Shown: positions 3,288 through 61,206 of the stretch, in pieces | Layout: each line of letters begins with the position of its first letter | Position numbering within the stretch: position 1 is the first letter of the stretch | Assembly (NCBI GenBank): GCA_021812945.1 | Contig: JAKAMI010000002.1 | Span: 1,047-65,046 of the forward strand | From: a bacterium | GTDB lineage: Bacteria; Patescibacteriota; UBA1384; XYA2-FULL-43-10; JAKAMI01 | Reading direction: 5' to 3' | Length of the DNA: 64,000 bases | The notes under the pieces: generated by a model | Seen by the model: only the letters and a program-made list of their open reading frames with translations | Databases searched by the model: none | What the model was told of the DNA's origin: nothing | Position numbers and translations under genes: made by a program

Positions 3288-3389
3288 GAACGTCCCTCCA
3301 TGTGCGAGCTTGGTCTGTCTAATTCTAAAATAGATAATATTATATGCACTGTCTAGACCTCGAAGCTATAATCTGTTATTTTGGAGGAT

Positions 3390-4856
3390 ATGAAAGAGAT
3401 TAAAATATTGGCCATAGAAACAAGTTGCGATGAAACCTGCGCAGCCGTTATCATGGCTGCCTCCTCGCGAAAGTACAAAAACTACAAAAGTACAAACATT
3501 GGAGAATGCCCGGTCGTTTTGTCGAATGTGGTGAGTTCGCAGATCGACCTGCACGCAAAAACCGGCGGCATCGTGCCGGAGGTGGCGAGTCGAGCGCATA
3601 TAGAGGTGATCGTCCCTGTTATTCGCGAAGCGCTCATAATAGCAAACCCTAAACTCGAAATTCTAAACTCTAAAAAAATTCAAAAATCTAAAAATAAGAT
3701 CAGCGCTGTGTTAGAGAACAATTTAGTAATTCAGCAATACAGCAATGAAATTTCGGAAATGCTTTCCGAAATTACCCACATCGCCGTGACTTCCGGGCCG
3801 GGGTTGGTCGGGGCGCTGTTGGTAGGGTTTAACACGGCCAAAACATTGGCGTATTCGCTGAATATTCCCATCGTGCCAATTAACCATATTGAGGGACACA
3901 TTTACTCGGCGATGGCCTCTGTGCCTGTCATTGCTAGGGCCGGTGTTTCGGCCCGTGGCAATCTAGCAAAGGAGATTGCCAGGTCGCCCCTCCTCGCAAT
4001 GACAAAGGGAGGGGTCAACTTCCCCATCTTGGCTTTGACAGTCTCGGGTGGTCATACTTCGCTTACCATAATGAAAGACCATGGAGTCTATGAAAACATC
4101 GGCCACACCATAGATGATGCAGCGGGCGAGGCATTTGATAAAGTGGCCAAGTTATTGGGACTAGGCTACCCGGGAGGACCGGCTGTTTCTAAACTCGCTG
4201 AAGAGTTTAGAAACAGAATAATCAATAATCAAGAGACAATAACCAAACAAATTCCAAATTCTAAATCTCAAAATCTCAAACCGGACTTCCGGACTTCCGG
4301 ACTTTCGGACTCGGGACTTGTATTTCCCCGTCCGATGCTCAATTCGGGAAACTTTAACTTTTCTTTCTCAGGACTCAAAACCGCGGTTCTAAATATAGTC
4401 CATAGTCTAAAAGTCCAAGAGTCCAAAGGTGAAAATTCGAAGACTTTAGGACTTCCGAACTTTCGGACTCAGGACTGGCGACCGGAGGTCGCCTTCGCTT
4501 TTGAAGAGGCGGTGGTGGATGTGCTGGCGACCAAGACGATGAGAGCGGTACTTAAATACAAACCGAAAACCGTGGTTCTAGCCGGCGGGGTGGCGGCGAA
4601 TAATCGATTGAGATCAGAACTACAGGGAAGGATTGAGACATATAATCACGGTCATCCTGAACTTGTTTCAGGATCCCATGGTAGACTGGAGGATTCTTCG
4701 GCTGCGCCTCAGAATAATGTGTCGTTGTTGATGCCTCCTCCGGAAATGTGTGGGGACAATGCGGCCATGATCGGACTGGCGGCGTACTACCACATTTTCC
4801 GCGGAGAAACTCCAAAATGGCACGAAATAAGTCTTGATGCCAATGCAAAACTGTAA
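3390..4856 (+). CDS. tsaD: tRNA N6-adenosine threonylcarbamoyltransferase TsaD (Kae1/Gcp family), about 150 aa longer than usual because of repeat insertions
   Basis: MKEIKILAIETSCDETCAAV N-terminus and GPGLVGALLVG motifs. An SD (ttggaggat) precedes the ATG at 3390; the ORF track starts at an upstream TTG. Inserts: [72 protein letters not shown]. Confidence 0.85.
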   Translation: MKEIKILAIETSCDETCAAVIMAASSRKYKNYKSTNIGECPVVLSNVVSSQIDLHAKTGGIVPEVASRAHIEVIVPVIREALIIANPKLEILNSKKIQKSKNKISAVLENNLVIQQYSNEISEMLSEITHIAVTSGPGLVGALLVGFNTAKTLAYSLNIPIVPINHIEGHIYSAMASVPVIARAGVSARGNLAKEIARSPLLAMTKGGVNFPILALTVSGGHTSLTIMKDHGVYENIGHTIDDAAGEAFDKVAKLLGLGYPGGPAVSKLAEEFRNRIINNQETITKQIPNSKSQNLKPDFRTSGLSDSGLVFPRPMLNSGNFNFSFSGLKTAVLNIVHSLKVQESKGENSKTLGLPNFRTQDWRPEVAFAFEEAVVDVLATKTMRAVLKYKPKTVVLAGGVAANNRLRSELQGRIETYNHGHPELVSGSHGRLEDSSAAPQNNVSLLMPPPEMCGDNAAMIGLAAYYHIFRGETPKWHEISLDANAKL

Positions 4857-8293: not shown

Positions 8294-8480
8294 AAGACAG
8301 TCTTTTTGAAGATGTAAAGACTGTCTTTAAGACTCTCGAGATTAAAGTAAAGACAGTCTTCCAAAGCAGCGAAGACTGTCTTTTAGCGGGCAAAGCGATG
8401 ACAGTCTTCCATGGCAGCGAAGACTGTCTTTAGCAAACAGAGCAAAGACAGTCTTCCAAGGTAGCGAAGACTGTCTTTTA
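8294..8480. terminator. Tandem array of four near-identical terminator-like hairpins (aaagacagtcttc-loop-gaagactgtcttt) between convergent genes
   Basis: Perfect 12-13 bp stems, 9-11 nt loops, each followed by T-runs, at about 8294-8329, 8349-8385, 8397-8431, 8445-8480. Single copies of the same hairpin end two other genes (10073-10110 and 59017-59057). Confidence 0.6.
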
Positions 8481-9111: not shown

Positions 9112-9188
9112 TGGTACCCTCGAGAGGATTCGAACCTCCGACCTTCGGTACCGGAAACCGACGCTCTATCCGACTGAGCTACGAGGGC
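9112..9188 (-). tRNA. tRNA-Arg (anticodon CCG)
   Basis: The reverse complement reads GCCCTCGTAGCTCAGTCGGATAGAGCGTCGGTTTCCGGTACCGAAGGTCGGAGGTTCGAATCCTCTCGAGGGTACCA, a cloverleaf with CCG anticodon, TPsiC motif GGTTCGAATCC and 3' CCA. Confidence 0.85.
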
Positions 9189-10072: not shown

Positions 10073-10110
10073 CAAAGACAGTCTTCGCTGCCTTGGAAGA
10101 CTGTCTTTTG
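10073..10110 (+). terminator. Intrinsic terminator hairpin (aagacagtcttc family)
   Basis: aaagacagtcttc gctgccttg gaagactgtcttttg directly after the DedA stop. Confidence 0.6.
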
Positions 10111-10130: not shown

Positions 10131-11171
10131 CTAGGGCTGCGGAGAAGCAGGGGGCTGATTGGTATTACCGGAAGGTTGGGCAGGAGTAGGGTTAGCTCTA
10201 TCATCGGTGGCGGGAGTATCAAAGGTGTAGTTGGGATGAGAGGTTGGCCGGTCGGTAGTCGGTTGTCCGTTGTCGGTTGCCGGTAAAGCAGATCGGGAGT
10301 TATCGGTATTGGGTGACGGGATCGGGGCGGGGTTTGAGTCTACCGGAGCGGCGAGCGTGTCTGGCGTCTGGAGAGTAGTTTGATCCGGGATCGGCGTGGT
10401 TTTGACAGGAGTAGCATTGAGACCGGCAGTATTCTGTCCGGACATGTCCGGAGCTTGGGTAACGGGAGCGACAAATTGGTCGAAGGTCATAGGTTGTTTG
10501 TCGGAAGATTGGTTATCGGTAATCGGTAGACTGTTATCGGGAGCGGAGCCTGGCACCGGTGGGGTTACCGGCTCGACTGGTTTGGGTTCCGTTTCGACAG
10601 TCGATTCTGCTGCGGGAGTCGGGATTGGCTCGGATGCTATGGGTGATTTGTCTGGAGCAGGCTCAGCGGTAGCCGGAGGCTCATCGCCATCGAATATCGA
10701 CTTGGGCTGGCCGGTAGCGGCCGGTACGGAGGCGGTATCGTCGTCGAAATCGGAGAAAAGATCATCGGCCGGAGTGGTGGTCGGTTCATCGATAGGTTTG
10801 TTGTCGGTTGTCGGTTGTCGGTTGTCAGTAGGGGTATCAGTTGGAGTCAAATCATCGATTTTTGGTGCCGGTGTTTCCGGTTTCGTTTCGTCGGGCTCCG
10901 TGTGTTTAATCGGTTCGGGTTTGACCGGGACGAGATCATCCTTAACATCGTCCTTTTTCTCGTCCGGCTTGGGTTCGGGCATGGCGGCCGGTAAAACGGC
11001 ATCGCCGGTCAATTTTTCCAAATGATTGACACCGACAACCACGGCAGCCGGCGTGCCGTTCCTGGTCAGAACATACATTTGGTCGGTATTATCGACCTCG
11101 TCGATAATCTTATTGAAGCTATCTCGCGCCTCGGTTACCGGTATGATCTTGTCTACATCTACCTGAAGCAT
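10131..11171 (-). CDS. Phd/YefM-like antitoxin domain fused to an approximately 270 aa Pro/Thr/Asp-rich disordered tail
   Basis: The ATG at 11171 has a GGAGG SD. N-terminus MLQVDVDKIIPVTEARDSFNKIIDEV...QMYVLTRNGTPAAVVVGVNHLEKL matches the YefM/Phd fold. The remainder is low complexity with ggttgtc heptamer repeats (DNRQPTTDNKP). No adjacent toxin gene. Confidence 0.55.
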   Translation of the reverse strand: MLQVDVDKIIPVTEARDSFNKIIDEVDNTDQMYVLTRNGTPAAVVVGVNHLEKLTGDAVLPAAMPEPKPDEKKDDVKDDLVPVKPEPIKHTEPDETKPETPAPKIDDLTPTDTPTDNRQPTTDNKPIDEPTTTPADDLFSDFDDDTASVPAATGQPKSIFDGDEPPATAEPAPDKSPIASEPIPTPAAESTVETEPKPVEPVTPPVPGSAPDNSLPITDNQSSDKQPMTFDQFVAPVTQAPDMSGQNTAGLNATPVKTTPIPDQTTLQTPDTLAAPVDSNPAPIPSPNTDNSRSALPATDNGQPTTDRPTSHPNYTFDTPATDDRANPTPAQPSGNTNQPPASPQP

Positions 11172-11436
11172 AAGCCCCTCCAAAAAATTACGCAGTAATT
11201 TTTTGTCCCGCGTATCCGCCAAGGGCGGAGAAGTGGGACAAGTCAAAATATTATTAATCTAAAAGAAGAAAGAAGTAGGTAATTATCTGCTTGCTCAGCT
11301 CTCCTGAATTTCTAGGCGCTTTTTGAGATCGTTGTCTCAAGCGCTTGCGACCGTCGAAATTCAGTAAAGCCTCGCCGGCTTCGTGAAGTGTCACCCGATA
11401 ATTCAATTCTAATACAAATAAAAAGTTTAAGCAAAA

Positions 11437-12456
11437 TTAACGCTTTTCCAAAACCTCGCCCAGGGCTTCCTGCCAGGGGCGCATGGTGAGGCCGTATTTA
11501 TTCAACTTGGCTTTGGTGAGGTAGGAGTAGGCCGGGCGTTTGGCGGGGGTGGGGTACTCGGCGGTGGCGATAGGTTTGAGACCTATTTTAACCTTCGACT
11601 GTTTAAAAATTTCCTTGGCAAAATCATACCAAGAAGCTTCGCCCTCGCCGGTGGCGTGGTAGATACCGTAGGGAAGAGGGGCATTGCTTGATTGTTTCAT
11701 CCTGCTCCGCTCTTCTGGAGCTATGAGGGACACGGTTGCTTCATTGTTGTCATCCTGAACTTGTTTCAGGATCTCTGCGTTTGAATTTTGGGACCCTGAA
11801 ACAAGTTCAGGATAACGGTTTCGGAAGATAATTTCAGCAATCACCCCAACCAGGTCGCCGGTGTAGGTGGGGGAGCCGATTTGGTCGCTGACGACCGAGA
11901 TTGAATCGCGTTCTTTGGCCAGTCTCAGCATCGTCTCAACGAAATTCGAGCCAGGATGACCCTGTGGCAACTCGCCGTAAAGCCAGGCGGTGCGTATAAT
12001 ATAATACTTGTCGCAGACTGCCTGAATCGCTTTTTCGCCTTCCAACTTGGTTTGGCCGTAGAAGTTGACCGGATCGGTCGGATCGTCCTCATTTATTGGG
12101 ACGTTACCGGTACCCGGGAAGACGTAATCGGTCGAAATATACAACAACGTCGTATCTTTTTCGGCGGCGATTTCAGCCAGGTTTTTGGTTCCGACGGCAT
12201 TCACTTTATAGCAAAGTTCCCGACCCTCACCCTCGGCCTTGTCGACCTGGGTATAAGCGGCGGCGTGAATAATGAAGTCGGGCTTTTCTCTTGACAAAAC
12301 CCGCTCAATCATCGTTTTGTCGGTAATATCCATCTCCTCGGAGTCAGTGAGTATTAGTTGGTAGTCAGTCGTCGGTTGTCGGTTGTCAGGGACCTGAAGT
12401 CGTTCGATCAATTTGTTCCCGAGCTGGCCCTTGGCGCCGGTGATTAGAATTTTCAT
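11437..12456 (-). CDS. rfbD: dTDP-4-dehydrorhamnose reductase (RmlD) carrying two in-frame repeat insertions
   Basis: MKILITGAKGQLG Rossmann start at the ATG 12456, with an SD supplied by the upstream palindromic element. Inserts are VPDNRQPTTDYQL (ggttgtc repeats) and a roughly 100 nt double gtcatcctgaacttgtttcaggat palindrome encoding [23 protein letters not shown]. Confidence 0.8.
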   Translation of the reverse strand: MKILITGAKGQLGNKLIERLQVPDNRQPTTDYQLILTDSEEMDITDKTMIERVLSREKPDFIIHAAAYTQVDKAEGEGRELCYKVNAVGTKNLAEIAAEKDTTLLYISTDYVFPGTGNVPINEDDPTDPVNFYGQTKLEGEKAIQAVCDKYYIIRTAWLYGELPQGHPGSNFVETMLRLAKERDSISVVSDQIGSPTYTGDLVGVIAEIIFRNRYPELVSGSQNSNAEILKQVQDDNNEATVSLIAPEERSRMKQSSNAPLPYGIYHATGEGEASWYDFAKEIFKQSKVKIGLKPIATAEYPTPAKRPAYSYLTKAKLNKYGLTMRPWQEALGEVLEKR

Positions 12457-14940: not shown

Positions 14941-15051
14941 CTCCTTCGCAAATCTACAAATCCGGCAAAAATACAAATAATGCGCAACGTTCAATTTGTA
15001 TTTTCGTAAAATTTGCCGTGCCTGCCGGCAGGCAGGTAGATTCGCGAGGGG
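14941..15051. repeat. Family-A palindromic element, copy 2 (variant with an internal gccgtgcctgccggcaggcaggtag palindrome)
   Basis: Between the rfbC start and the rfbA stop. Confidence 0.7.
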
Positions 15052-15911: not shown

Positions 15912-16021
15912 TTCCTTCGCGAATCTACAAATCTAGCAAAAGTACAAATAGCGAATAGCGTCCAATTTGTATTTTCGTAAAATTTGCCGTGCCTGCCGGC
16001 AGGCAGGTAGATTCGCGAGGG
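15912..16021. repeat. Family-A palindromic element, copy 3, in the divergent rfbA / flippase intergenic region
   Basis: Same consensus as copies 1 and 2. Confidence 0.7.
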
Positions 16022-19172: not shown

Positions 19173-20141
19173 ATGAGTAAAAGTCAATCAACGATCAACG
19201 ATCAACGATCAACATACTTAACAACCGGTGCGGCGGGGTTTTTGGGCTCGAACTTGAGTCTAAGATTGCTTGAAGGTGGACATGAGGTGGTTGGTGTCGA
19301 CAATTTGCAAACCGGCCGGCGGCAAAACCTGGAGGAGCTCAAGAAATTCCCCAAATTCAAATTCGTCGATCACGATATTATCGAACCGCTTAAAGTCGAG
19401 GGTTCTTTTGAGTATATCCTGAATCTGGCCTGTCCGGCTTCCCCTCCCCGCTACTACCAAGATCCGGTCAAAACCCTGGAAACCAACTCCGCCGGCACCA
19501 AAAATATGCTTGAGCTGGCGCTAAAACATAGGGCGCGTTTTTTTCAGACTTCAACCTCTGAAGTTTACGGCAACCCCAAAGAGCATCCTCAGAGAGAAAG
19601 CTATTTCGGTAATGTCGAACCCTACTGCAAACGCTCCTGCTACGACGAAGGCAAACGCTATGCCGAGGCTTTAATCTGGCAATATCGGCATTTATTCAAA
19701 CTGGACACCGGAATCATCCGGATTTTCAACACCTACGGTCCGAGAATGGATCCGGAGGACGGCCGCGTGGTCACCAATTTCATCAGGCAGGCATTAAACG
19801 CTGAAAATATCACCGTTCAAGGTAGCGGCGAGCAAACGCGATCTTTTTGTTACGTTGACGATCAAATCGACGGGATGATGAAAATGATCCATTCCGAAGA
19901 AGAGGGTCCGATCAACATCGGCAACCCCGGGGAGTTTAGCATTTTAGAGCTAGCTAATCTAATTATCAAGCTGACCGGAAGCAAATCAAAAATTATCCAC
20001 ACCGAAGCCGCCTTGAGCGACCCGGAGCGCCGCCGACCGGACATTTCTCTAGCCAAAGAACGCTTGGGTTGGGAACCGAAGGTAGGGCTGGAAGAAGGGC
20101 TGAAGAAGACGATAGAGTGGATGAAAATGATTAAAAACTAA
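19173..20141 (+). CDS. UDP-glucuronate decarboxylase (UDP-xylose synthase, SDR family)
   Basis: TGAAGFLGSNL...ILNLACPASPPRYYQDPVKTLETN...YDEGKRYAE; N-terminal caacgat heptamer repeat (QSTINDQRST). Confidence 0.8.
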   Translation: MSKSQSTINDQRSTYLTTGAAGFLGSNLSLRLLEGGHEVVGVDNLQTGRRQNLEELKKFPKFKFVDHDIIEPLKVEGSFEYILNLACPASPPRYYQDPVKTLETNSAGTKNMLELALKHRARFFQTSTSEVYGNPKEHPQRESYFGNVEPYCKRSCYDEGKRYAEALIWQYRHLFKLDTGIIRIFNTYGPRMDPEDGRVVTNFIRQALNAENITVQGSGEQTRSFCYVDDQIDGMMKMIHSEEEGPINIGNPGEFSILELANLIIKLTGSKSKIIHTEAALSDPERRRPDISLAKERLGWEPKVGLEEGLKKTIEWMKMIKN

Positions 20142-20148
20142 ACGTTTT

Positions 20149-20236
20149 CCCCTCGCAAATCTACAAATTTTACAAAAATACAAATTGCACGTCGCGCGTT
20201 ATTTGTACTTTTGCTAGATTTGTAGATTCGCGAAGG
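20149..20236. repeat. Family-A palindromic element, copy 4, immediately upstream of ugd (provides its aaggag SD)
   Basis: cccctcgcaaatctacaaattttacaaaaatacaaat...atttgtacttttgctagatttgtagattcgcgaaggag. Confidence 0.7.
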
Positions 20237-20252
20237 AGAGAGGAGTTTTGTC

Positions 20253-21548: not shown

Positions 21549-21639
21549 CCCCTTCGCGAATCTACAAATTTTACGAAAATACGAATTGGACACTACTCGC
21601 TATTTGTACTTTTGCTAGATTTGTAGATTTGCGGAGGGG
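21549..21639. repeat. Family-A palindromic element, copy 5, upstream of the GT2 gene
   Basis: ccccttcgcgaatctacaaattttacgaaaatacgaat...atttgtacttttgctagatttgtagatttgcggagggg. Confidence 0.7.
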
Positions 21640-28305: not shown

Positions 28306-28389
28306 TGTCAACCTCCTTTGGGAGTTGCTCAGCAATTGCTAAGCTAGCCCGAGACTAGCATAAGTACGAATACTAAACAATACCCAAGC

Positions 28390-29716
28390 GGCTCTATGTC
28401 AAGTGGTGTGGTAGTAGGAGACTGATCGGGATAAATGCCAGCAATGCTTTTCTGATGTAGTTATCTACGTTTCTGAATCCGTACGAAAGACGTTTGATTG
28501 TTTTTAGTTTGGTATTAACTCCTTCGGTGTAGCCGTTAGTGGTGAAACGATCGAAGTAAGCCAGAATCTCATTTTGCCAGCGCATCAACATTTTCAGAAG
28601 TTGCCTGGTCGGTTGATGATTGGAGCCTTTCATCTTGTTAGTCAGGATATTAAAGCTTAGTTCCGCGAGTGTTTTGTTGGGTATCTTGTAGATCCGGCGC
28701 AACTCTTCTTTACAACTCCAGAGCTCGCCTAATTCCGGATATGCTTTGTTAATCTCGTTTAAGGCGACTCGTTCGTTTGGTTTTAGATGTTCTTTCGGTT
28801 TGTCAAAGATGACTTTGGGTAGTTTAACTTTGTCAGTCCCCTGGATTAAAGTTCTTAAGTTAGAAAGTTGACGATTGGCTTCGGCAATTACATGGAAAGC
28901 ATCAACTACGATTGTAGCCCTAGGTAGCTCCCTCTTGATTGTTTGGTAGTAACGCCTGTCCATATCTATACAGACTTCAGTAATGGCTTCCTTGCGCGCG
29001 GCTGGTATGTCTTGAAGAAATTTCTCAACCGTAATCCGACTATCATCCGGTAAGATAGAGATCAGCTGGCGATTTGTGATATCGGTGAAGGTAGGCAACA
29101 TTTTCTGGCCGGAAAAACTATGACAATCTAGACCCATTGAAATTACAATCCCTTCCGGCCAGACACCAACCAGAGGGTTGATTTTGTCGTTTAAGATTTG
29201 TTGAATGGTGGTAAAGCTAGTCTCGGCTAAATCCTGCTGAGTTTTGAAACTGGTTGAGCCCAAGCCCTTGATTATCTGATCTGCGTAGACCAGAGAATAG
29301 TTCTTATTAAGTGGAATTGATTTGTGGCGGTCGGTGGTGATGTGACGACGCCTATCTTTTTTCTGGCACCACCAGCAGAAGAATGCCCTAGTTTTAACTC
29401 TAAGCATAATTAAATTGCCTTGCCAAAACATGTGCTTAACCCGTCTGGGTTTTAAGTGGCGGTTAAGAGTCGTGACGTAGCGTCCGCAGTCTCTACAATG
29501 GACACCTTTAGTTTTTGGTCTTACGGTGATCAACATAACTTTGCCGTTTATCTCCGTATTTTCAACATGGAACTCTTGCAGTTTGAACATCTTTTTGAAA
29601 CAATTCTCCATAGGTAGACTCCTTGTAGTTAAGTGATATTTCCTACAATCAGTCTACCTACTTTTGTTTTACGCATAAAGCGTAGCTAACCGTACCACAC
29701 TGTTTAGTATAGAGCC
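28390..29716 (-). mobile_element. ISL3-family insertion sequence
   Basis: Imperfect terminal inverted repeats of about 25 bp: ggctctatgtcaagtggtgtggtag at about 28390 and ggctctatactaaacagtgtggtac (reverse complement) at about 29690-29716. No clear direct repeats. Confidence 0.55.
28394..29611 (-). CDS. ISL3-family transposase
   Basis: N-terminal zinc finger (CRDCGRYV...CWWCQKK) and C-terminal DDE_Tnp_ISL3 signature FDRFTTNGYTEGVNTKLKTIKRLSYGFRNVDNYIRKALL. Confidence 0.85.
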   Translation of the reverse strand: MENCFKKMFKLQEFHVENTEINGKVMLITVRPKTKGVHCRDCGRYVTTLNRHLKPRRVKHMFWQGNLIMLRVKTRAFFCWWCQKKDRRRHITTDRHKSIPLNKNYSLVYADQIIKGLGSTSFKTQQDLAETSFTTIQQILNDKINPLVGVWPEGIVISMGLDCHSFSGQKMLPTFTDITNRQLISILPDDSRITVEKFLQDIPAARKEAITEVCIDMDRRYYQTIKRELPRATIVVDAFHVIAEANRQLSNLRTLIQGTDKVKLPKVIFDKPKEHLKPNERVALNEINKAYPELGELWSCKEELRRIYKIPNKTLAELSFNILTNKMKGSNHQPTRQLLKMLMRWQNEILAYFDRFTTNGYTEGVNTKLKTIKRLSYGFRNVDNYIRKALLAFIPISLLLPHHLT

Positions 29717-29856
29717 GGGCGGTTTACACCCCAATCCAAAAAACCCTTGACTAATTTCTGTCATGCTGAATTTATTTCAGCATCTTAAGACAAGTGCGTA
29801 ACATTTTGGGATTCTGAAACAAGTTCAGAATGACGAAAAGAAAAGTTTCCGGAATA

Positions 29857-44111: not shown

Positions 44112-46187
44112 ATGGGTATTTTGGAGCAACTTAATCCTGAACAACGTGAAGCTGTGACCACCACCAGTGGTCCAGTTTTAGTGCTCGCGGGTGCAGGCAG
44201 CGGCAAAACTAGAGCGTTGACCTACCGGATTGCTTATCTGATTCAAGAAAAACGGGTTTCACCGTATTCGATACTAGCCGTGACCTTCACTAATAAGGCA
44301 GCGCACGAAATGAGTAACCGGGTTGCCCGCCTGCTCGCGTTTTCGTTGAATAAGACCAATTGGCCAAATGAGTCTAATTTGACCAATAAACTTCCTTGGC
44401 TGGGGACGTTTCACTCCATTTGCGTCAAAATTCTAAGACGCGAAGCCAACCACCTGGGTTACGAGCGCAGCTTCACTATCTACGACGATCAAGACCAGCA
44501 AGCGGTCATCAAAAAGATCTTACGAGATCTGCAGCTCGACCCTAAGAAAACTTCACCATCATCGATATCTTACTTTATCTCCGGGGCCAAAGCTGAACTT
44601 ATGACAGCGGCCGAATATACCAAGTATGCAACTTATGGCTTTCAGAAAATTGTCAGTGAGGTCTATTTCGCTTATGAAAAAGCTCTGAAGCGAGCCGAGG
44701 CAATGGACTTTGACGACCTAATTCTAAACTGCGTGCGCCTATTTCGTGAGTTCCCGGAGCTGTTAGAAAAATATCAGCGTCAGTTTCAATATATTTTAAT
44801 CGACGAGTACCAGGACACCAACCACGCCCAATACGTTTGGGCTAAATTGCTGGCTTCAGACCATCACAATATTTGTGTGGTGGGCGATGATTTTCAGTCG
44901 ATCTATTCTTGGCGCGGGGCGAATTTTCGCAACATTTTAGACTTCGGCAAAGATTATCCGGAAGCTAAAATTATCAAAATGGAGCAGAACTATCGCTCGA
45001 CCAAATCAATTCTGGGTGCGGCGCAGGGGGTGATAGAAAAGAATAAGGATCGAACCGACAAGAAACTTTGGACCGAGAACAAAGAGGGGGTGCCGGTAAC
45101 GGTTTTCGAGGCGGGGAGCGACCGTGACGAAGCGGACTTTGTCACTCGCGAAATTCGCGCTCTGAGAATGAACAGCCTAAATTACTCAGATTTTGCCATT
45201 TTATACCGTACTAATGCTCAGTCGCGGCAGTTTGAGGAGACTTTTATCCGCTACGGCATCCCGTACCAAATTATCGGCGGAGTCAGCTTCTACCAACGGC
45301 GCGAAGTGAAGGATGTCATCGCTTACCTGCGCTACATTCACAATCCGCGAGACCTGGTCTCGTTGGAGCGGATTATAAATGTACCGGCTCGGGGGATTGG
45401 GCCAAAAACAGCGGAGCTGCTTTTGGAAGTCAAAAGTCAAAAGTCAAAAGTCAAAAGTATGGAAGAGCTACCAGATAAGGTCAGAAAGTTTGAGGAGATG
45501 ATTACCAGTTTGCGTGAATACTATCAGAAACATTCCATAGTCGAGCTAATAGATACCTTGGCTCGAATGACGGGGTATAAGGATTATCTGCTGGACGGGA
45601 CGCCGGAGGGAGAGGCGAGGTGGGAAAACATTGAGGAGCTGATGAACATTGCGGCGGCACAAGCCGCCCCCTACGAAAATACAAAAGAAGGCACGAAAGT
45701 ACGAAAGTACAAATCTGGAGACGAACCGGTACCTCAGAATACCATTCCAGCCTCTCGCTCCGTCATTCCTGCGAAAGCAGGAATCCAGACTGGATCCCAG
45801 ATCGAGTCTGGGATGACGAGTAGCCGCGAGACGGATAATCAACTCGAGGAGTTTCTTGAGCGGGTTAGTTTGTATCAAGACTCGGAAAAATTGGACAAAG
45901 ACCGCGATGCGGTGGTTTTAATGACTTTGCACGCAGCCAAGGGCTTGGAATACGATACGGTTTTCATCGCCGGTCTGGAGGAAGGTATTTTCCCGCACTC
46001 CAGAAGCTTGACCGAAAAAGATCAGTTGGAGGAGGAGAGACGGCTTTGTTACGTCGGCATGACCCGGGCACAGAAAAGGCTATACCTGCTATATGCCCGC
46101 CAGCGGCTTTTTCATGGCAACATAATGGCGTCTCTCCCCTCAAGATTTTTGGGGGAAATACCAGCAGAGTTCACAGACATTCTGTGA
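44112..46187 (+). CDS. uvrD: ATP-dependent DNA helicase UvrD/PcrA with repeat insertions
   Basis: LNPEQREAV, AGAGSGKTRALTYR, TFTNKAAHEM, ILIDEYQDTN, VGDDFQSIYSWRGA. Inserts NKTNWPNESNLTNKLP, EVKSQKSKVKSMEE, YENTKEGTKVRKYKSGDEPVPQNTIPASRSVIPAKAGIQTGSQIESGMTSS. Confidence 0.85.
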   Translation: MGILEQLNPEQREAVTTTSGPVLVLAGAGSGKTRALTYRIAYLIQEKRVSPYSILAVTFTNKAAHEMSNRVARLLAFSLNKTNWPNESNLTNKLPWLGTFHSICVKILRREANHLGYERSFTIYDDQDQQAVIKKILRDLQLDPKKTSPSSISYFISGAKAELMTAAEYTKYATYGFQKIVSEVYFAYEKALKRAEAMDFDDLILNCVRLFREFPELLEKYQRQFQYILIDEYQDTNHAQYVWAKLLASDHHNICVVGDDFQSIYSWRGANFRNILDFGKDYPEAKIIKMEQNYRSTKSILGAAQGVIEKNKDRTDKKLWTENKEGVPVTVFEAGSDRDEADFVTREIRALRMNSLNYSDFAILYRTNAQSRQFEETFIRYGIPYQIIGGVSFYQRREVKDVIAYLRYIHNPRDLVSLERIINVPARGIGPKTAELLLEVKSQKSKVKSMEELPDKVRKFEEMITSLREYYQKHSIVELIDTLARMTGYKDYLLDGTPEGEARWENIEELMNIAAAQAAPYENTKEGTKVRKYKSGDEPVPQNTIPASRSVIPAKAGIQTGSQIESGMTSSRETDNQLEEFLERVSLYQDSEKLDKDRDAVVLMTLHAAKGLEYDTVFIAGLEEGIFPHSRSLTEKDQLEEERRLCYVGMTRAQKRLYLLYARQRLFHGNIMASLPSRFLGEIPAEFTDIL

Positions 46188-47315: not shown

Positions 47316-47392
47316 CGATGTTGTCATTCCCGCTTTAGGCGTGCGAATCCACTAATAAATTAGGAATCGGGTAGATTCCCGCCTTCGCGGGA

Positions 47393-48499
47393 ATGACGGA
47401 AAAAGAGGTAGGGATAATCAAAATAAAAGTTACTGAAATCAAACAATTTCTGAGCGAAAATCAGACTTGGGCCAAGAAGAGTTTTGGCCAGCATTTTTTG
47501 GTTGACGAGAATGTTTTAAGCAAAATTGTGGCCACGGCCGAATTATCAAAATCAGATCGAGTCTTGGAGATCGGTCCGGGCTTGGGGGTCTTAACCGATC
47601 AACTAATTGAACGTGCAGGTGAAGTTGTAGCTATCGAAGCAGACCGGTTCTTAGCCAGTTGTCTGGCTAAGAAATATCAAACCCTACAACACGTCATTCC
47701 AGTGAAAGCTGGAATCCAGGGATTAGAAAAAACTGGATCCCAGATCAAATCTGGGATGACAGAGAAAGATGACTTTGGACTTTCAACTTTCAACTTTCAA
47801 CTAATTGAAGGTGACGCTTTGAAAGTCATCGACAGCCTGGAATTTAAAAGGGGATTTCGATCGAAACCTTATAAAGTGATCGCCAATATTCCATATTCGA
47901 TAACATCAAAATTATTAAGGCTGCTACTGGAAGAATATCAACCAACCTCAATCACTTTTTTGGTGCAAAAAGAGGTGGCGGAGAGGGTTTGCGCCAAGCC
48001 CGGTCGGATGAGCCTTTTATCATTATCCGTCCAATACTTCGGCACCCCGAAGATCATCGCCACCGTTCCGGCCGGAGCTTTCTGGCCACAACCAAAAGTT
48101 GAGTCAGCAATTTTGCACATCAAGTTGACCACGATACACACACCTGCCTGCCGGCAGGCAGGGAAATCAATTCACAGAGAGGACACAGAAAATTTAACCC
48201 TGCCCACCTCCGAGGAGTCAGAGCCCACCTCGGAGGTGTTTACGGGCAAAAATAATGAAACAATGAAACAATCTAGCAATGAGCTATTCAAACTGGCCAG
48301 AATCGGTTTAGGTTCCAAGCGGAAAATGCTGGCGCACAATTTATCGACCGGCTTAAGTCTTCCGCGGGAAGAAATTGTTGATATAATAAAATCGGTGGGA
48401 CTTAAGGAAACAGTCAGAGCGCAGGAGCTAAGCGTTAAGGAGTGGGAAGAATTATCACGCTCCCTCGCGAATCTACAAATTTGGCAAAAATACAAATAA
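47393..48499 (+). CDS. rsmA: 16S rRNA (adenine1518/1519-N6)-dimethyltransferase RsmA/KsgA with two composite repeat insertions
   Basis: SFGQHFLVDENVL...VLEIGPGLGVLT...IANIPYSITS. Inserts VIPVKAGIQGLEKTGSQIKSGMTEKDDFGLSTFNFQL and HTPACRQAGKSIHREDTENLTLPTSEESEPTSEVFTGKNNETMKQSSNE. Confidence 0.85.
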   Translation: MTEKEVGIIKIKVTEIKQFLSENQTWAKKSFGQHFLVDENVLSKIVATAELSKSDRVLEIGPGLGVLTDQLIERAGEVVAIEADRFLASCLAKKYQTLQHVIPVKAGIQGLEKTGSQIKSGMTEKDDFGLSTFNFQLIEGDALKVIDSLEFKRGFRSKPYKVIANIPYSITSKLLRLLLEEYQPTSITFLVQKEVAERVCAKPGRMSLLSLSVQYFGTPKIIATVPAGAFWPQPKVESAILHIKLTTIHTPACRQAGKSIHREDTENLTLPTSEESEPTSEVFTGKNNETMKQSSNELFKLARIGLGSKRKMLAHNLSTGLSLPREEIVDIIKSVGLKETVRAQELSVKEWEELSRSLANLQIWQKYK

Positions 48500-53909: not shown

Positions 53910-56282
53910 ATGACCGCTCTCAAACTTGATTCACCCATCCAATACCTAAAAGGTGTGGGGCCGAAGCTGGCTGAGAAATTAAAAAGGCTGGAAATAGAAA
54001 CTCCGGCCGATCTTTTGTACCATCTGCCGCGGACCTACATTGACTACTCGCAAACGGTCCCGATCAAATCCACCCGCATCGGCGATCTTGTCGTTATTAA
54101 AGGAAAAATATCGGATCTCAGCATCAAACGCACGCCGCGGAAATGGATGGCCATCGTCGAGTTTTTGGTATCGGATCATTCAGGCTCGATCAAAGTTGTC
54201 TACTTCAACCAGCCCTACCTCAAAGACACCTTTAAAAACGGCGAGGAACTCTATTTTTACGGTAAAATTAACTATGACTATTCCGGCTCGATTAAGTCTC
54301 TCAACAGTCCGGACTTCAGCCGCGAGCCGAAGATCGTACCCATTTACCCGGAAACAAAAAACGTCAACAGTAAATACCTAAACAAGTTAGTAGTCGGTTG
54401 TCTGTCGTCAGTTGACAGCGCCAGAGAATATTTGCCCGAGGAAATAAAAACTCAAGCTAAGCTGGTGAATATCGAGCAAGCCCTGAGGTTTCTCCACCAA
54501 CCGGCCAAAATGGCCGAGGTTGGGTCGGGGCGCCGGCGCCTAGCCTTTGACGAACTCTATTTAACGGCTCTGCAAACGCAAATTTTTCGACAACAACGTC
54601 GGGAGCAAAAGGCGGTACGGGTCAAGATTGATAACAAAGAGCTGGTAAGTTTTGTCGACCAGTTGCCGTTTAAACTAACCGCTGCCCAAAAAAGGGCGGC
54701 TTGGCAAATCTTGCTTGACCTAAGGGGTCAAACTAAGTCCGGAGTCCAAGAGTCCAAGAGTCCAAGAGGGAAGACTTCCGGACTTCCGGACTTTAGGACT
54801 TTGGACTGGATTCCTCCGATGAATCGGCTGCTCAATGGTGATGTCGGTAGCGGCAAGACGGTGGTGGCGGCTATGGCAGCCTATGCGGTCATAAAGGCCG
54901 GTTACCGAGTCATCGTCATGGCGCCAACCGAAGTATTGGCTTTTCAACATTACAACACCTTTCAAGAAATTTTGGCTAAATACGACATCAGTGTTGGCCT
55001 GGCGACAAGTTCTAGAAAGGAAACATCACTTTCTGTCATTCCTGTGAAAGCAGGAATCCAGACGAAGAAAACTACTGGATCCCGGATCAAGTCCGGGATG
55101 ACGGACAAAAACAATAAAACAATGAAGCAATTGAACCATGTTTTTGAGACATGTGACCTCCTGGTTGGTACCCATGCGGTACTAGAAGATACTTTTAATC
55201 ATGAAAAGGTGGCGCTGGTGGTGGTTGATGAACAACACCGGTTCGGAGTCGAGCAGAGGGCAAAGATACAAAGAATGACAAGCTCCAGGAACGTCATTCC
55301 AGCCCCTCATCCTGTCATTCCAGCGAAAGCTGGAATCCAGAAATCATCAAAAGCCACTGGATCCCGGATCAAGTCCGGGATGACAAATGAGGACAAAGGA
55401 ATCCAAGCTCACTTCCTTTCGATGACCGCCACACCAATACCAAGAACGCTGCAGCTGACGCTTTACGGCGACTTGGATGTTTCGGTCATCGATGAGATGC
55501 CGAAAGGGCGTAAAGAAATCGAGACTAAGGTTTTTGCCGATCGTGATCGTGAAAAAGCTTATGACCTCATTAGGGATCAGGTAAAGTTGGGGAGACAAGT
55601 GTTCATTGTCTGCCCCTTGATCGAGGAAAATCAGGAGCAAGGTGGGCAAAGACAGTCTTTGCAAAAGGAGCAAAGACTGGCTTTACCCGAATTAGATCGG
55701 AAAACAGTGGTAGCGGAACAGAAAAGACTCAAAGAACAGGTATTTCCGGACTTAAAGATTGGGCTAATGCACGGGAAACTCAAGCCCAAGGAGAAAGAAG
55801 TAGTGATGAATGAATTTACCAGTCGCAAACTAGATATATTAGTCAGTACCTCGGTGGTCGAGGTAGGTGTCGATGTGCCGAATGCCAGTGTGATGATGGT
55901 CGAAAATGCCGAAAGATTCGGCCTAGCTCAGTTACACCAGTTCCGCGGCCGGGTCGGTAGGGCGGAGCATCAATCTTACTGTTTATTAATGTCATCCAGC
56001 CCTCGTCCGGAAAACATCAAACGCTTGAAAGCTATGGAAACGCATGCTTCCGGGTTTAAGTTGGCGGAGATTGATTTGGAGCTTCGTGGACCGGGAGTTA
56101 TTTACGGCAAAGAGCAATCGGGCTTCGGTGACTTGAGGCTAGACTGGGTTTCTGATATATTTCTACTAGAGGAAGCGCGTGAAGCGGCCAAGAAAACACT
56201 GACCTTGAATCCGAGTCTGTCGTCCTGGCCGGGACTGCGAGAAAAACTTGGCGAGAAGTTCGGAGAAGCACATTTAGAATAA
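53910..56282 (+). CDS. recG: ATP-dependent DNA helicase RecG with three composite repeat insertions
   Basis: LKGVGPKLAEKL (HhH), wedge domain, GDVGSGKTVVA, DEQHRFGV, helicase motifs. Inserts KSGVQESKSPRGKTSGLPDFRTLDW, SVIPVKAGIQTKKTTGSRIKSGMTDKNNKTMKQLNH and VIPAPHPVIPAKAGIQKSSKATGSRIKSGMTNEDKG. Confidence 0.85.
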   Translation: MTALKLDSPIQYLKGVGPKLAEKLKRLEIETPADLLYHLPRTYIDYSQTVPIKSTRIGDLVVIKGKISDLSIKRTPRKWMAIVEFLVSDHSGSIKVVYFNQPYLKDTFKNGEELYFYGKINYDYSGSIKSLNSPDFSREPKIVPIYPETKNVNSKYLNKLVVGCLSSVDSAREYLPEEIKTQAKLVNIEQALRFLHQPAKMAEVGSGRRRLAFDELYLTALQTQIFRQQRREQKAVRVKIDNKELVSFVDQLPFKLTAAQKRAAWQILLDLRGQTKSGVQESKSPRGKTSGLPDFRTLDWIPPMNRLLNGDVGSGKTVVAAMAAYAVIKAGYRVIVMAPTEVLAFQHYNTFQEILAKYDISVGLATSSRKETSLSVIPVKAGIQTKKTTGSRIKSGMTDKNNKTMKQLNHVFETCDLLVGTHAVLEDTFNHEKVALVVVDEQHRFGVEQRAKIQRMTSSRNVIPAPHPVIPAKAGIQKSSKATGSRIKSGMTNEDKGIQAHFLSMTATPIPRTLQLTLYGDLDVSVIDEMPKGRKEIETKVFADRDREKAYDLIRDQVKLGRQVFIVCPLIEENQEQGGQRQSLQKEQRLALPELDRKTVVAEQKRLKEQVFPDLKIGLMHGKLKPKEKEVVMNEFTSRKLDILVSTSVVEVGVDVPNASVMMVENAERFGLAQLHQFRGRVGRAEHQSYCLLMSSSPRPENIKRLKAMETHASGFKLAEIDLELRGPGVIYGKEQSGFGDLRLDWVSDIFLLEEAREAAKKTLTLNPSLSSWPGLREKLGEKFGEAHLE

Positions 56283-56441
56283 TTCATTTGAGTAGGCCAA
56301 CACAGACATCATTTACAGATTAAGCACAGATAGAGAAAACATTTTAACAAGTCATCCTGAACTTGTTTCAGGATCCCGGATTTCTTTGATGGGATTCCGG
56401 ATCAAGTCTGGAATGATGGACGGATCTGGGGAGATTTCGGA

Positions 56442-61050: not shown

Positions 61051-61206
61051 GATTTCTCACTCGCTGACTCGTTCGAAATGACGCAATCTTATTTAGCTCG
61101 TCATCCCGAACCCCGTATCGTGGTACGGGGCAGGCCTGTTCCGAGATTCCGCTTTTTATGATGGGATGCTGAAATAAATTCAGCATGACAATTATTATTT
61201 CATCGA

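What the first reader, a model, noticed from the sequence alone, without database searches (positions are those of the whole stretch)
11735..11830. A roughly 100-nt double palindrome inserted in frame in rmlD
gtcatcctgaacttgtttcaggatctctgcgtttgaattttgggaccctgaaacaagttcaggataac forms two back-to-back hairpins and is read through as ...[23 protein letters not shown]... inside the reductase. Related hairpins occur intergenically at 4651, 29800 and 56345. A large structured insert tolerated inside an enzyme suggests it lies in a surface loop. It may also make a strong mRNA structure.
Basis: seen in the sequence. Interest (0 to 1): 0.6.

Follow-up and report, generated by a model that had tools for sequence, protein, structure and literature searches.

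The report
Selfish palindromic repeat inside rmlD
The hairpin-forming segment inside the rhamnose-pathway gene rmlD is real: it is a copy of a widespread family of small palindromic DNA repeats ("CGTC-tagged REPs", the kind known as RPEs in Rickettsia), it sits in frame in a surface loop of the enzyme, and it is a known kind of selfish element seen here in a bacterial group where I found no earlier report.

Summary
Confirmed. Window 11749-11816 is a 68-nt inverted repeat: two 25-nt arms, 92% complementary, with an 18-nt spacer. It is read in frame as [23 protein letters not shown] in an intact rmlD (11437-12456, minus strand). It is not a one-off. It is a head-to-head dimer of a "CGTC-tagged REP" (Di Nocera et al. 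2013), the superfamily that includes Rickettsia RPE-4/-6 and Neisseria dRS3. The match covers the YGTC tag, an 8-bp stem starting AT, a 5-nt loop, and known intragenic copies. The window holds about 12 such elements. Seven are in frame in genes (tsaD x2, rmlD, uvrD/pcrA, ksgA, recG x2). The exact 25-mer occurs in at least 120 genome loci across many phyla. Compared with solved RmlD structures, the element lies in a 48-aa insert (aa 215-262) between a core helix and strand. The AlphaFold core is confident (TM 0.95 to 1vl0) and the insert is low-confidence. Forty of the 120 closest, mostly Patescibacteria, homologs carry different repeats in the same loop. Intragenic dimers have tag-to-tag length of 2 mod 3, and no target duplication is seen. 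Most likely it is a translated, near-neutral selfish repeat. How it moves is unknown. It is a new member of a known kind.

The parts
11437..12456 (-). rmlD (dTDP-4-dehydrorhamnose reductase), 339 aa, intact, last gene of an rmlA-rmlC-rmlB-orf-rmlD cluster
   Evidence: Pfam RmlD_sub_bind E 7.6e-96. PDB RmlD hits down to E 5.6e-65. T109, Y133 and K137 are invariant and the GxxGxxG glycines G7, G10 and G13 are invariant in 73 homologs. Neighbouring rml genes.
11749..11816 (.). CGTC-tagged REP head-to-head dimer (module A + inverted module A'), 68 nt tag to tag, encoding aa 214-236 [23 protein letters not shown]
   Evidence: family features from PMC3733652.
11749..11773 (+). Left arm: tag (t)GTC + AT-CCTGAA / CTTGT / TTCAGG-AT + C. 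This exact 25-mer also occurs at 4651 and 56351.
   Evidence: The exact 25-mer is in at least 120 genome loci of many phyla and 22 viral contigs.
11774..11791 (.). 18-nt spacer (tctgcgtttgaattttgg). It shares ...gcgt..a.attttgg with the spacer of the intergenic dimer at 29760-29834.
   Evidence: read directly.
11792..11816 (-). Right arm: inverted copy with a degenerate tag (GTTAT instead of GTCAT) and one A-to-G change in the stem
11671..11814 (-). Whole 48-aa segment (aa 215-262) that is absent from solved RmlD proteins. The REP dimer is its N-terminal half. The remaining 25 aa (NNEATVSLIAPEERSRMKQSSNAPLP) are of unknown origin.
11684..11704 (+). Partial direct copy (TTGCTTGATTGTT-TCATCCTG) of the junction flank plus tag at 11736-11757 (TTGCTTCATTGTTGTCATCCTG), 52-53 nt away. 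It looks like a remnant or local duplication inside the insert.
   Evidence: families D1, D4. An analogous 21-nt partial tag duplication lies before the recG dimer at 55293-55313.
12370..12393 (-). Second small insert in rmlD, aa 22-29 VPDNRQPT, built on (GACAACC) heptamers. This is a different repeat class.
   Evidence: pLDDT 68.
4651..4718 (+). Related dimer (module A + a different inverted module) in frame in tsaD, aa 423-444 [22 protein letters not shown]
3927..4003 (+). Another GTCAT...ATGAC-tagged palindrome in frame in tsaD (aa 179-211 insert)
29760..29834 (.). Intergenic dimer with compensatory stem variants (ATGCTGAA/TTCAGCAT and ATTCTGAA/TTCAGAAT), 42 nt outside an ISL3 insertion sequence
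45762..45817 (+). CGTC-1-type (dRS3-like) + module C dimer in frame in uvrD/pcrA (SVIPAKAGIQTGSQIESGMTS)
47693..47760 (+). Same dimer type in frame in ksgA/rsmA (aa 100-124)
55035..55102 (+). Same dimer type in frame in recG (aa 384-408)
55314..55384 (+). Second dimer in frame in recG (aa 477-502)
56351..56417 (.). Intergenic heterodimer (module A + inverted module C), 24 nt upstream of a comEA-like gene
47323..47397 (.). Intergenic dimer whose right tag ATGAC supplies the predicted ATG of ksgA
61100..61189 (.). Intergenic dimer (CGTCATCCCGAACC...CAGCATGAC)

Best explanation
The segment is a head-to-head dimer of a CGTC-tagged REP. This is a small, non-coding, hairpin-forming repeat of the same superfamily as Rickettsia RPE-4/-6 and Neisseria dRS3. 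It has landed inside rmlD. It persists because (i) the inserted unit keeps the reading frame and is stop-free in the frame used, and (ii) it lies in the helix-to-strand surface loop of the Rossmann-type domain, where extra residues do not disturb the fold. It is translated as part of a flexible 48-residue excursion and is probably neutral or nearly neutral for the enzyme. Shown: the family features, the multiple copies, the cross-phylum spread, the hairpin covariation, the loop position, the intact catalytic residues, and the absence of a target-site duplication. Inferred: that the peptide is made, that it is neutral, and how the element spreads. I take the spread to be as a single-stranded hairpin acted on in trans by an unidentified enzyme, because no transposase with matching ends was found here and none was associated with the family in the 2013 survey. 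The 2-mod-3 length rule for intragenic copies implies that the inserted unit is tag-to-tag plus one nucleotide, which fits the extra C of the CGTC tag.
For: Family features are all met. The tag base before GTCAY is C in 45 and T in 29 of 78 dimers. The stem is 8 bp starting AT with a 5-nt loop. Inverted dimers with variable spacers are the rule. The paper's own list gives the same peptide signature, RHSELVSGS, for a CGTC-2 unit in Sulfurovum, and VIPAKAGI for CGTC-1 in R. conorii. There are about 12 copies in 64 kb, 7 of them in frame in genes. The exact 25-mer is in at least 120 loci of many phyla. Partner arms chosen only by their tag are 77% paired, against 23-50% when the pairing is shifted, and show compensatory changes: GC 15 / CG 14 / TA 7 at one stem position. 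No target duplication is seen in 71 of 78 dimers. Tag-to-tag length is 2 mod 3 in 7 of 7 intragenic dimers against 0 of 4 intergenic dimers in the window. Elsewhere it is 2 mod 3 in 12 of 13 dimers inside ORFs of at least 250 aa, against 24/21/13 for the three classes outside ORFs. The insert is absent from solved RmlDs, has low pLDDT on a confident core, and the fold is retained. A syntenic ortholog carries a different CGTC dimer in the same loop, displaced by 7 codons, which means independent events. The dimers in KsgA and PcrA/UvrD also fall in inserts relative to solved homologs.
Against: No empty site or polymorphism was available: the eight contigs compared over longer stretches are 99.9-100% identical to the window, with no indels. 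Insertion as an event is therefore inferred, not observed. The dimer explains only 68 of the 144 extra nucleotides. The other 76 nt and the 22-nt partial duplicate are unexplained. The right-arm tag is degenerate (GTTAT) and the left tail is not CCA. Translation and neutrality are untested. No mobilising enzyme was found in the window: among 44 ORFs scanned with Pfam the only transposase is ISL3, and its ends are unrelated.
Confidence: 0.78

Rival explanations
1. The hairpin is kept because it acts in cis on the rml mRNA. A 25-bp near-perfect duplex would be a plausible RNase III substrate, a stability element or a translation pause site, and could tune rmlD expression.
For: The predicted structure is very stable: -42.8 kcal/mol, z = -6.8. 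Pairing is preserved by compensatory changes across the family. The 2013 survey argues that many REPs are transcribed and act as RNA elements.
Against: The same modules sit in unrelated genes and in intergenic DNA in either orientation. Orthologs carry unrelated sequences or nothing at this site. It matches no Rfam family and is not terminator-like. Covariation is equally expected if the hairpin is needed only for the element's own propagation.
Confidence: 0.12
2. The encoded peptide has been co-opted. The 48-aa loop would give RmlD a new interaction or regulatory surface, for example in a cell-envelope glycan complex.
For: The loop is large and partly predicted as helices. The same loop is expanded in 40 of the 120 closest homologs.
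Against: The expansions are unrelated in sequence and are made of different repeat families. Insert pLDDT is only 62-67. The same peptide motifs occur in TsaD, UvrD, KsgA and RecG. This pattern fits a tolerant site, not a selected function.
Confidence: 0.05
3. The palindrome arose locally, by template switching or duplication within rmlD, rather than by arrival of a repeat element.
For: A 22-nt direct partial duplicate of the junction lies 52 nt away. The two arms are near-identical.
Against: The identical 25-mer is at two other loci in the window and in at least 120 loci of other phyla. Those copies have the same tag and dimer architecture.
Confidence: 0.03
4. The element is a MITE derived from, and moved by, an insertion sequence of this genome (for example the ISL3 copy next to one dimer), or a REPIN moved by a RAYT transposase.
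For: It has the inverted-arm architecture of a MITE or REPIN. An ISL3 transposase gene lies 42 nt from the dimer at 29760. Lack of a target duplication resembles IS200/IS605 and RAYT chemistry.
Against: The ISL3 ends (28389-28413 and 29693-29717) are unrelated to the module. The tag is not GTAG. No Y1/HUH transposase is among 44 ORFs in the window. The 2013 survey found no transposase associated with CGTC repeats. Mosaic heterodimers (A+D', A+C', B+C') do not fit a single IS-derived inverted repeat.
Confidence: 0.1

Closest known systems
CGTC-tagged REPs, family CGTC-2 (Di Nocera, De Gregorio and Rocco, BMC Genomics 2013, PMC3733652)
   Same: The features match: an unpaired (C/T)GTC tag, an 8-bp stem beginning AT, a 5-nt loop, head-to-head homo- and heterodimers with variable spacers, intragenic dimers encoding 20-30 aa, a bias to DNA-repair and RNA-modification genes, and no associated transposase. 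The same encoded peptide (xHxELVSGS) is listed there for Sulfurovum SUN_0512.
   Different: The host is a Patescibacteria-like genome. That survey reported Proteobacteria, Chlorobi, Bacteroidetes, Spirochaetes and Thermotogae. In the rmlD copy the right-arm tag is degenerate and the left tail is CTC rather than CCA. Here more than half of the copies (7 of about 12) are intragenic.
Rickettsia palindromic elements (RPE; Ogata et al. 2000; RPE-4 and RPE-6 equal CGTC-4 and CGTC-1)
   Same: Both are palindromic repeats inserted in frame into housekeeping genes that remain intact, several per protein, in a small-genome, host-dependent bacterium. The VIPAKAGI / SFPRKRES peptides are identical to those of the window's uvrD, ksgA and recG copies.
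   Different: RPE-1 elements are longer (100-150 bp) and specific to Rickettsia. No sequence comparison with RPE-1 was made. The surface location of RPE-encoded peptides is from my own knowledge of that literature, not from a tool result.
Neisseria dRS3 repeats / NIMEs (Parkhill et al. 2000)
   Same: The same CGTC-1 module, GTCATTCCCGCGAAAGCGGGAATC, is paired in inverted orientation around a variable spacer, as seen in a gonococcal sequence printed in PMC7593972. The 2013 survey equates dRS3 with CGTC-1.
   Different: The Neisseria copies form large intergenic arrays. From my own knowledge they serve as integration sites for filamentous prophages and IS110-type elements. No such role is seen here.
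REPINs and GTAG REPs with RAYT transposases (Bertels and Rainey 2011; Nunvar et al. 2010)
   Same: Both are doublets of inverted short hairpins with an unpaired terminal tag and no target-site duplication, and the proposed mobile unit is the doublet.
   Different: The tag is GTAG, not (C)GTC. Those elements have a dedicated single-copy RAYT gene and are mostly extragenic and lineage-specific. Here no RAYT was found and the 25-mer is identical across phyla.
Bacterial MITEs that enter genes (Correia/NEMIS, Coxiella QMITEs, PMC5896051; title and abstract seen only)
   Same: They are short non-autonomous inverted-repeat elements, some of them in frame in ORFs.
   Different: MITEs have IS-derived terminal inverted repeats and target-site duplications. 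Neither was found here.

Membership tests
CGTC-tagged REP superfamily (PMC3733652) | Unpaired terminal CGTC motif (TGTC or CCTC variants allowed) at one end of each unit | tested here: met
   The left arm reads tGTCAT and the right arm (reverse complement) reads cGTTAT, which is degenerate. Across 78 related dimers the base before GTCAY is C in 45 and T in 29.
CGTC-tagged REP superfamily (PMC3733652) | Stem of 8-9 bp with complementary A-T at the first and second positions; loop of 4-5 nt | tested here: met
   ATCCTGAA / CTTGT / TTCAGGAT gives an 8-bp stem and 5-nt loop, which is the CGTC-2 geometry.
CGTC-tagged REP superfamily (PMC3733652) | Short unpaired tail after the stem, mostly CCA | tested here: inconclusive
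   The tail is CCC in the right arm of the rmlD copy and in the copies at 4651 and 56351, and CCA in the four B-type copies. It is CTC in the left arm of the rmlD copy.
CGTC-tagged REP superfamily (PMC3733652) | A repeated family in the genome, mostly as inverted (head-to-head) dimers, homo- or heterodimeric | tested here: met
   About 12 elements in 64 kb. Eleven are dimers, several with arms of different module types. Only this window was available, not the whole genome.
CGTC-tagged REP superfamily (PMC3733652) | No associated transposase gene | tested here: met
   Pfam scans of 44 ORFs found only an ISL3 transposase, and its inverted repeats are unrelated. This covers the window only.
Rickettsia palindromic elements (RPE) | Palindromic repeat inserted in frame in an otherwise intact, conserved gene, at a position absent from homologs | tested here: met
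Rickettsia palindromic elements (RPE) | Sequence membership in a named RPE family (RPE-1 to RPE-10) of Rickettsia | not tested
   There is only an indirect link: RPE-6 and RPE-4 equal CGTC-1 and CGTC-4 in the 2013 survey. The rmlD module has CGTC-2 geometry, so I do not file it as an RPE.
Rickettsia palindromic elements (RPE) | The encoded peptide is expressed and compatible with protein function | not testable with these tools
   This needs proteomics or an enzyme assay.
REPIN / GTAG REP with RAYT | GTAG tag and a RAYT (Y1/HUH) transposase gene flanked by the repeats | tested here: not met
   The tag is (Y)GTCAT. No Y1 transposase is in the window.
MITE | Terminal inverted repeats matching an IS of the genome, and a target-site duplication | tested here: not met
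   No direct repeat flanks 71 of 78 dimers. The ISL3 inverted repeats are unrelated.
Known structured RNA (Rfam) | Match at the gathering score to any of 4227 families | tested here: not met
   Only tRNAs reach threshold in the window. Local hits are generic miRNA-hairpin models at 18-28 bits against gathering scores of 57-99.

The most novel reading that the evidence does not exclude
In Patescibacteria, small hairpin-forming repeats (CGTC REP dimers and heptamer-built palindromes) may be a main source of protein loop expansion. They repeatedly and independently fill the same few permissive loops. In RmlD these are the N-terminus, position 22, positions 108-110, position 141, position 204 and the C-terminus. 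TsaD in this window has six inserts. The identity of the 25-mer across at least nine phyla, the lack of a target duplication, and the 'tag-to-tag + 1 nt' length rule for intragenic copies would then point to one still-unknown, widely shared trans-acting mechanism that inserts a defined single-stranded hairpin unit.
Probability: 0.3. Interest if true: 0.6.

Novelty: new member of a known kind. Interest (0 to 1): 0.38.

Why it matters
For annotation, the extra 48 residues in this RmlD, and the similar extras in TsaD, UvrD, KsgA and RecG, are repeat-derived. They should not be read as new domains or as signs of pseudogenes.

For biology, it extends the Rickettsia "selfish DNA inside genes" phenomenon to a Patescibacteria-like genome at high density (7 in-frame copies in 64 kb).

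It also gives two handles on the open question of how CGTC repeats move. One is a length rule that fixes the inserted unit to within one nucleotide. The other is a set of orthologous loops hit independently by different repeats.

Tried and rejected
- **Rfam.** The whole window at gathering score and the local region at E up to 1 gave nothing but tRNAs and generic hairpin noise.
- **Intrinsic terminator.** The scan did not flag the element.
- **Empty site.** I looked among the contigs carrying the identical gene. The eight compared are 99.9-100% identical to the window and show no polymorphism. The nearest ortholog is only 60% identical and carries its own element.
- **ISL3 as parent element.** Its inverted repeats are unrelated to the module.
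- **RAYT or other Y1 transposase.** None was found among 44 ORFs.
- **Target-site duplication.** None was found.
- **Second decayed module.** I compared the remaining 76 nt of the insert by eye with the other modules. Only TCATCCTG matches, so this is unresolved.
- **Literature on Patescibacteria or CPR.** Searches for in-frame palindromes or REPs in these groups found nothing relevant. A search for the sequence and peptide strings found only a Neisseria construct sequence.
- **Assembly artefact and local template-switch origin.** Both were rejected, on multi-sample identity and on the many unlinked copies.
Full report
**1. The observation**

The quoted string is at window 11749-11816. It consists of two 25-nt arms, GTCATCCTGAACTTGTTTCAGGATC and GACCCTGAAACAAGTTCAGGATAAC. 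The arms are 92% complementary and are separated by 18 nt. Each arm is also a hairpin on its own, with an 8-bp stem and a 5-nt loop.

The gene strand is predicted to fold as one long hairpin of -42.8 kcal/mol. The z-score is -6.8, and none of 200 dinucleotide shuffles folds as well. The 19-nt core occurs five times in the window, against 0.02 expected.

The element lies in an intact 339-aa ORF (11437-12456, minus strand). This ORF is rmlD: Pfam RmlD_sub_bind scores E 7.6e-96, and the best solved homolog, 1vl0, scores E 5.6e-65. It is the last gene of an rmlA-rmlC-rmlB-orf-rmlD cluster. The palindrome is translated in frame as [23 protein letters not shown], aa 214-236.

The identical gene is present in 12 contigs from independent ENA, NCBI and Logan assemblies. 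There are no differences in the eight contigs compared base by base. The sequence is therefore real and not an assembly artefact.

- The palindrome is 68 nt, not about 100.
- The copy "at 4651" is not intergenic. It is in frame inside tsaD.
- The segment missing from other RmlD proteins is larger than the palindrome.

**2. Position in the protein**

Against 1vl0, 3sc6 and 8g22 the alignment breaks cleanly. Query residues 1-214 and 263-336 align to contiguous target residues, so aa 215-262 (window 11671-11814) have no counterpart.

An AlphaFold2 model built on 73 homologs has a mean pLDDT of 90.6. There are two low-confidence stretches. One is the 48-aa insert, at 62-67. The other is a small second insert at aa 21-30, at 68. 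The insert hangs between core helix 199-214 and strand 264-267. The core superposes on RmlD crystal structures, with target-normalised TM of 0.95 for 1vl0 and 0.87 for 1kbz.

The catalytic residues T109, Y133 and K137 and the three glycines of the GxxGxxG motif (G7, G10, G13) are invariant across the homologs. The condition they gave for refutation, conservation of the segment in distant homologs, is not met: only the identical protein has it.

**3. What the element is**

The window contains a family of such elements. Each is a pair of hairpin modules in inverted orientation. The outer ends read GTCAT...ATGAC, and the spacer between the modules is variable. The modules come in several types:
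- A: ATCCTGAA-CTTGT-TTCAGGAT
- B: ATTCCNGC-GAAA-GCNGGAAT
- C: ATCCCGGA-TCAAG-TCCGGGAT
- further types beyond these

The two arms of a dimer are often of different types.

This matches point by point the "CGTC-tagged REP" superfamily of Di Nocera, De Gregorio and Rocco (2013, PMC3733652). That family is defined by:
- an unpaired CGTC or TGTC tag;
- an 8-9 bp stem beginning with A-T pairs;
- a loop of 4-5 nt;
- a short tail;
- mostly head-to-head dimers, either homo- or heterodimeric;
- intragenic dimers encoding 20-30 aa;
- no associated transposase.

That paper equates CGTC-1 with Neisseria dRS3 and Rickettsia conorii RPE-6, and CGTC-4 with RPE-4. Its supplementary table lists RHSELVSGS as a CGTC-2 unit in a Sulfurovum gene and VIPAKAGI as CGTC-1 units in R. 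conorii genes. These are the same peptide signatures as rmlD/tsaD (xPELVSGS) and uvrD/ksgA/recG (VIPxKAGIQ) here. A gonococcal sequence printed in PMC7593972 shows the same B-type dimer around a variable spacer.

**4. Spread and structure conservation**

The hosts include:
- Patescibacteria lineages: Gracilibacteria, Magasanikbacteria, Wolfebacteria, Falkowbacteria, Levyibacteriota, Moraniibacteriota and Paceibacter;
- Sphingomonadales and other Alphaproteobacteria;
- Bacteroidota, Treponema, Sulfurovaceae, Heliobacteriaceae, Anaerovoracaceae, Elusimicrobia-like, Gastranaerophilaceae, Dependentiae, Rickettsiaceae and Balneolaceae.

It is also on 22 IMG/VR viral contigs. In these loci it is usually paired with an inverted, related arm after a spacer of 5-105 nt.

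I then picked partner arms by their RTGAC tag only, not by their pairing. They are 77% paired in the hairpin register, against 23-50% when the register is shifted. They show compensatory changes, for example GC 15 / CG 14 / TA 7 at stem pair 6:22 and TA 24 / CG 15 at 8:20. The hairpin is therefore under selection across the family. This does not say whether selection acts on the DNA or the RNA, or whether it serves the host or the element.

**5. Clues to insertion**

Across 78 dimers, the base before GTCAY is C or T in 74 and the base after RTGAC is G or A in 71. There is no flanking direct repeat in 71. So there is no target-site duplication.

The tag-to-tag length follows a rule. It is 2 mod 3 in all seven intragenic dimers of the window (77, 68, 68, 56, 68, 68, 71 nt) and in none of the four intergenic dimers (75, 75, 67, 90 nt). 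In other genomes it is 2 mod 3 in 12 of 13 dimers inside ORFs of at least 250 aa. Outside ORFs the three classes are represented 24/21/13.

By my own frame analysis of the tag sequences, avoidance of stop codons alone does not force this class. The simplest reading is that the inserted unit is tag-to-tag plus one nucleotide (mod 3), and only such frame-preserving events survive in genes. That fits the extra C of the CGTC tag. The sample is small, and some high-GC ORFs in it may be spurious, so this is a lead and not a result.

**6. The loop is a hot spot**

Among the 120 closest homologs (47-60% identical; the named ones are mostly Patescibacteria), 40 carry an insert of at least 6 aa at this same alignment position. 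Further recurrent sites are the N-terminus, position 22, positions 108-110, position 141 and the C-terminus.

The closest ortholog is P0002, which has the same gene neighbourhood. It carries a different CGTC dimer (CGTCATCCCGAGCC...CTCAGAATGAC) in the loop, seven codons further from the helix. This is an independent event and not inheritance.

DNA of five more orthologs gave the following:
- three clearly hairpin-forming inserts of other repeat families (z of -3.6 or lower);
- one weaker case (z -1.8);
- one insert made of tandem heptamers, not palindromic.

The pattern fits a permissive loop that filters insertions, rather than one precise target.

**7. Other genes in the window**

- TsaD is 491 aa in the longest ORF, against about 337 aa for the solved homolog. 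It has about six inserts relative to solved TsaD. Two of them are GTCAT-tagged palindromes.
- The dimers in KsgA (aa 100-124) and PcrA/UvrD (aa 550-570) fall inside segments that are absent from solved homologs.
- RecG carries two dimers. I did not compare RecG with a solved structure.

The bias to repair helicases and RNA-modification enzymes was also noted in the 2013 survey.

**8. Mechanism, and what is inferred**

*Shown:* the identity of the element, its copy number, its structure conservation, its position in the loop, and the integrity of the gene.

*Inferred:*
- that it arrived by insertion, since no empty site is available;
- that it is translated;
- that it is near-neutral;
- that it spreads as a hairpin acted on in trans.

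No candidate enzyme is in the window. Of 44 ORFs scanned, the only transposase is ISL3, whose ends (28389-28413 and 29693-29717) are unrelated to the module.

Two things remain unexplained. The first is the 76 nt of the insert outside the dimer. The second is a 22-nt partial direct copy of the flank-plus-tag junction, 11684-11704 against 11736-11757. A similar 21-nt partial tag copy precedes the second recG dimer, at 55293-55313.

**9. Rival explanations**

- *A cis-acting RNA role* (RNase III site, stabiliser or pause site). This is possible but has no specific support. The same modules occur in any context and orientation. Orthologs have other sequences or nothing at the site. There is no Rfam match and no terminator.
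- *Co-option of the peptide.* This is unlikely, given the low model confidence and the lack of conservation.
- *Local template-switch origin.* This is excluded by the many unlinked identical copies.
- *MITE of ISL3 or RAYT-driven REPIN.* These fail on the ends, the tag and the absence of the gene.

**10. Verdict**

This is a real feature, correctly read as an insert in a surface loop. It belongs to an already described superfamily whose intragenic habit is already known (RPEs). What may be new:
- the host group: I found no paper linking Patescibacteria or CPR with REPs or in-frame palindromes in the held library;
- the density of in-frame copies;
- the recurrent use of the same loop;
- the length rule.

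Interest is modest.

Noticed in passing
window 3381-4856 (tsaD): TsaD is about 150 aa longer than solved homologs, with about six inserts (aa 23-38, 87-124, 179-211, 276-312, 337-353, 418-450). Two are GTCAT-tagged palindromes (3927-4003 and 4651-4718). Three are low-complexity or heptamer-built, for example (CGGACTT)n giving PDFRTSGLSDSG.
   Followed up: partly
window 12370-12393 (rmlD aa 22-29) and 10131-11246: There is a second small insert, VPDNRQPT, in rmlD, built on GACAACC heptamers. The same DNRQPTTD motif recurs several times in the neighbouring gene, which has a Phd/YefM antitoxin N-terminus followed by a roughly 290-aa low-complexity Pro/Thr/Asp tail. Heptamer repeats of this kind also fill the RmlD loop in orthologs such as P0022.
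   Followed up: partly
RmlD homologs P0011-P0119; L122 23-1021: Many Patescibacteria RmlD homologs carry inserts of the form QDLGLRTQ...NPKTQDL at up to four sites each. In P0020 the DNA is an imperfect palindrome built from GGACTTA / TAAGTCC heptamers (dG -46 to -47 kcal/mol). This repeat class is distinct from CGTC REPs, and I could not find a description of it.
   Followed up: partly
window 55293-55313 and 11684-11704: Partial direct copies of the tag-proximal end of a dimer lie just upstream of the full element. In recG this is a 21-nt copy, GTCATTCCAGCC.... In rmlD it is a 22-nt copy of flank plus TCATCCTG. They may be footprints of the insertion process or of an earlier element.
   Followed up: no
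window 28389-29717: An ISL3-family insertion sequence (transposase 28394-29611, minus strand; 25-nt imperfect inverted repeats CGGCTCTATG...) lies 42 nt from the intergenic CGTC dimer at 29760-29834. REPs are known insertion hot spots for IS elements.
   Followed up: partly
window 47389-47397: The predicted ATG start of ksgA (47393) lies inside the ATGAC tag of an intergenic CGTC dimer (47323-47397). The Pfam match begins only at residue 27, so the real start may be downstream.
   Followed up: no
window 8349-8478 and 10074-10108: There are four copies of a 13-bp-stem hairpin, AAAGACAGTCTTC-N9-GAAGACTGTCTTT. Three are in tandem at 8349, 8400 and 8444, and one is inverted at 10074. They lie at the ends of genes around tRNA-Arg (9112-9188). 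This is a different palindromic repeat family.
   Followed up: no
window 14942-15050, 15913-16021, 20141-20241, 21565-21637: A 70-110-nt intergenic repeat (85-93% identity, in both orientations) flanks rmlA and other sugar-nucleotide genes of the polysaccharide cluster. It was seen as self-hits.
   Followed up: no
window 43523-44089 and 57258-57761: There are two genes with the 23S_rRNA_IVP (bAvd-like four-helix bundle) domain. One is immediately upstream of uvrD and one is after tRNA-Leu. Such genes often accompany diversity-generating retroelements, but no reverse transcriptase was seen among the ORFs scanned in the window.
   Followed up: no
window 36365-38935: The type IV pilus ATPase (T2SSE/PilB-like, 856 aa) carries an N-terminal Bac_DNA_binding (HU/IHF-like) domain at residues 33-122. 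This is an unusual fusion.
   Followed up: no
L137-L158 (IMG/VR): The exact 25-mer GTCATCCTGAACTTGTTTCAGGATC is present on 22 viral contigs. This is a possible route for its spread between phyla, or it may be host DNA at prophage edges.
   Followed up: no
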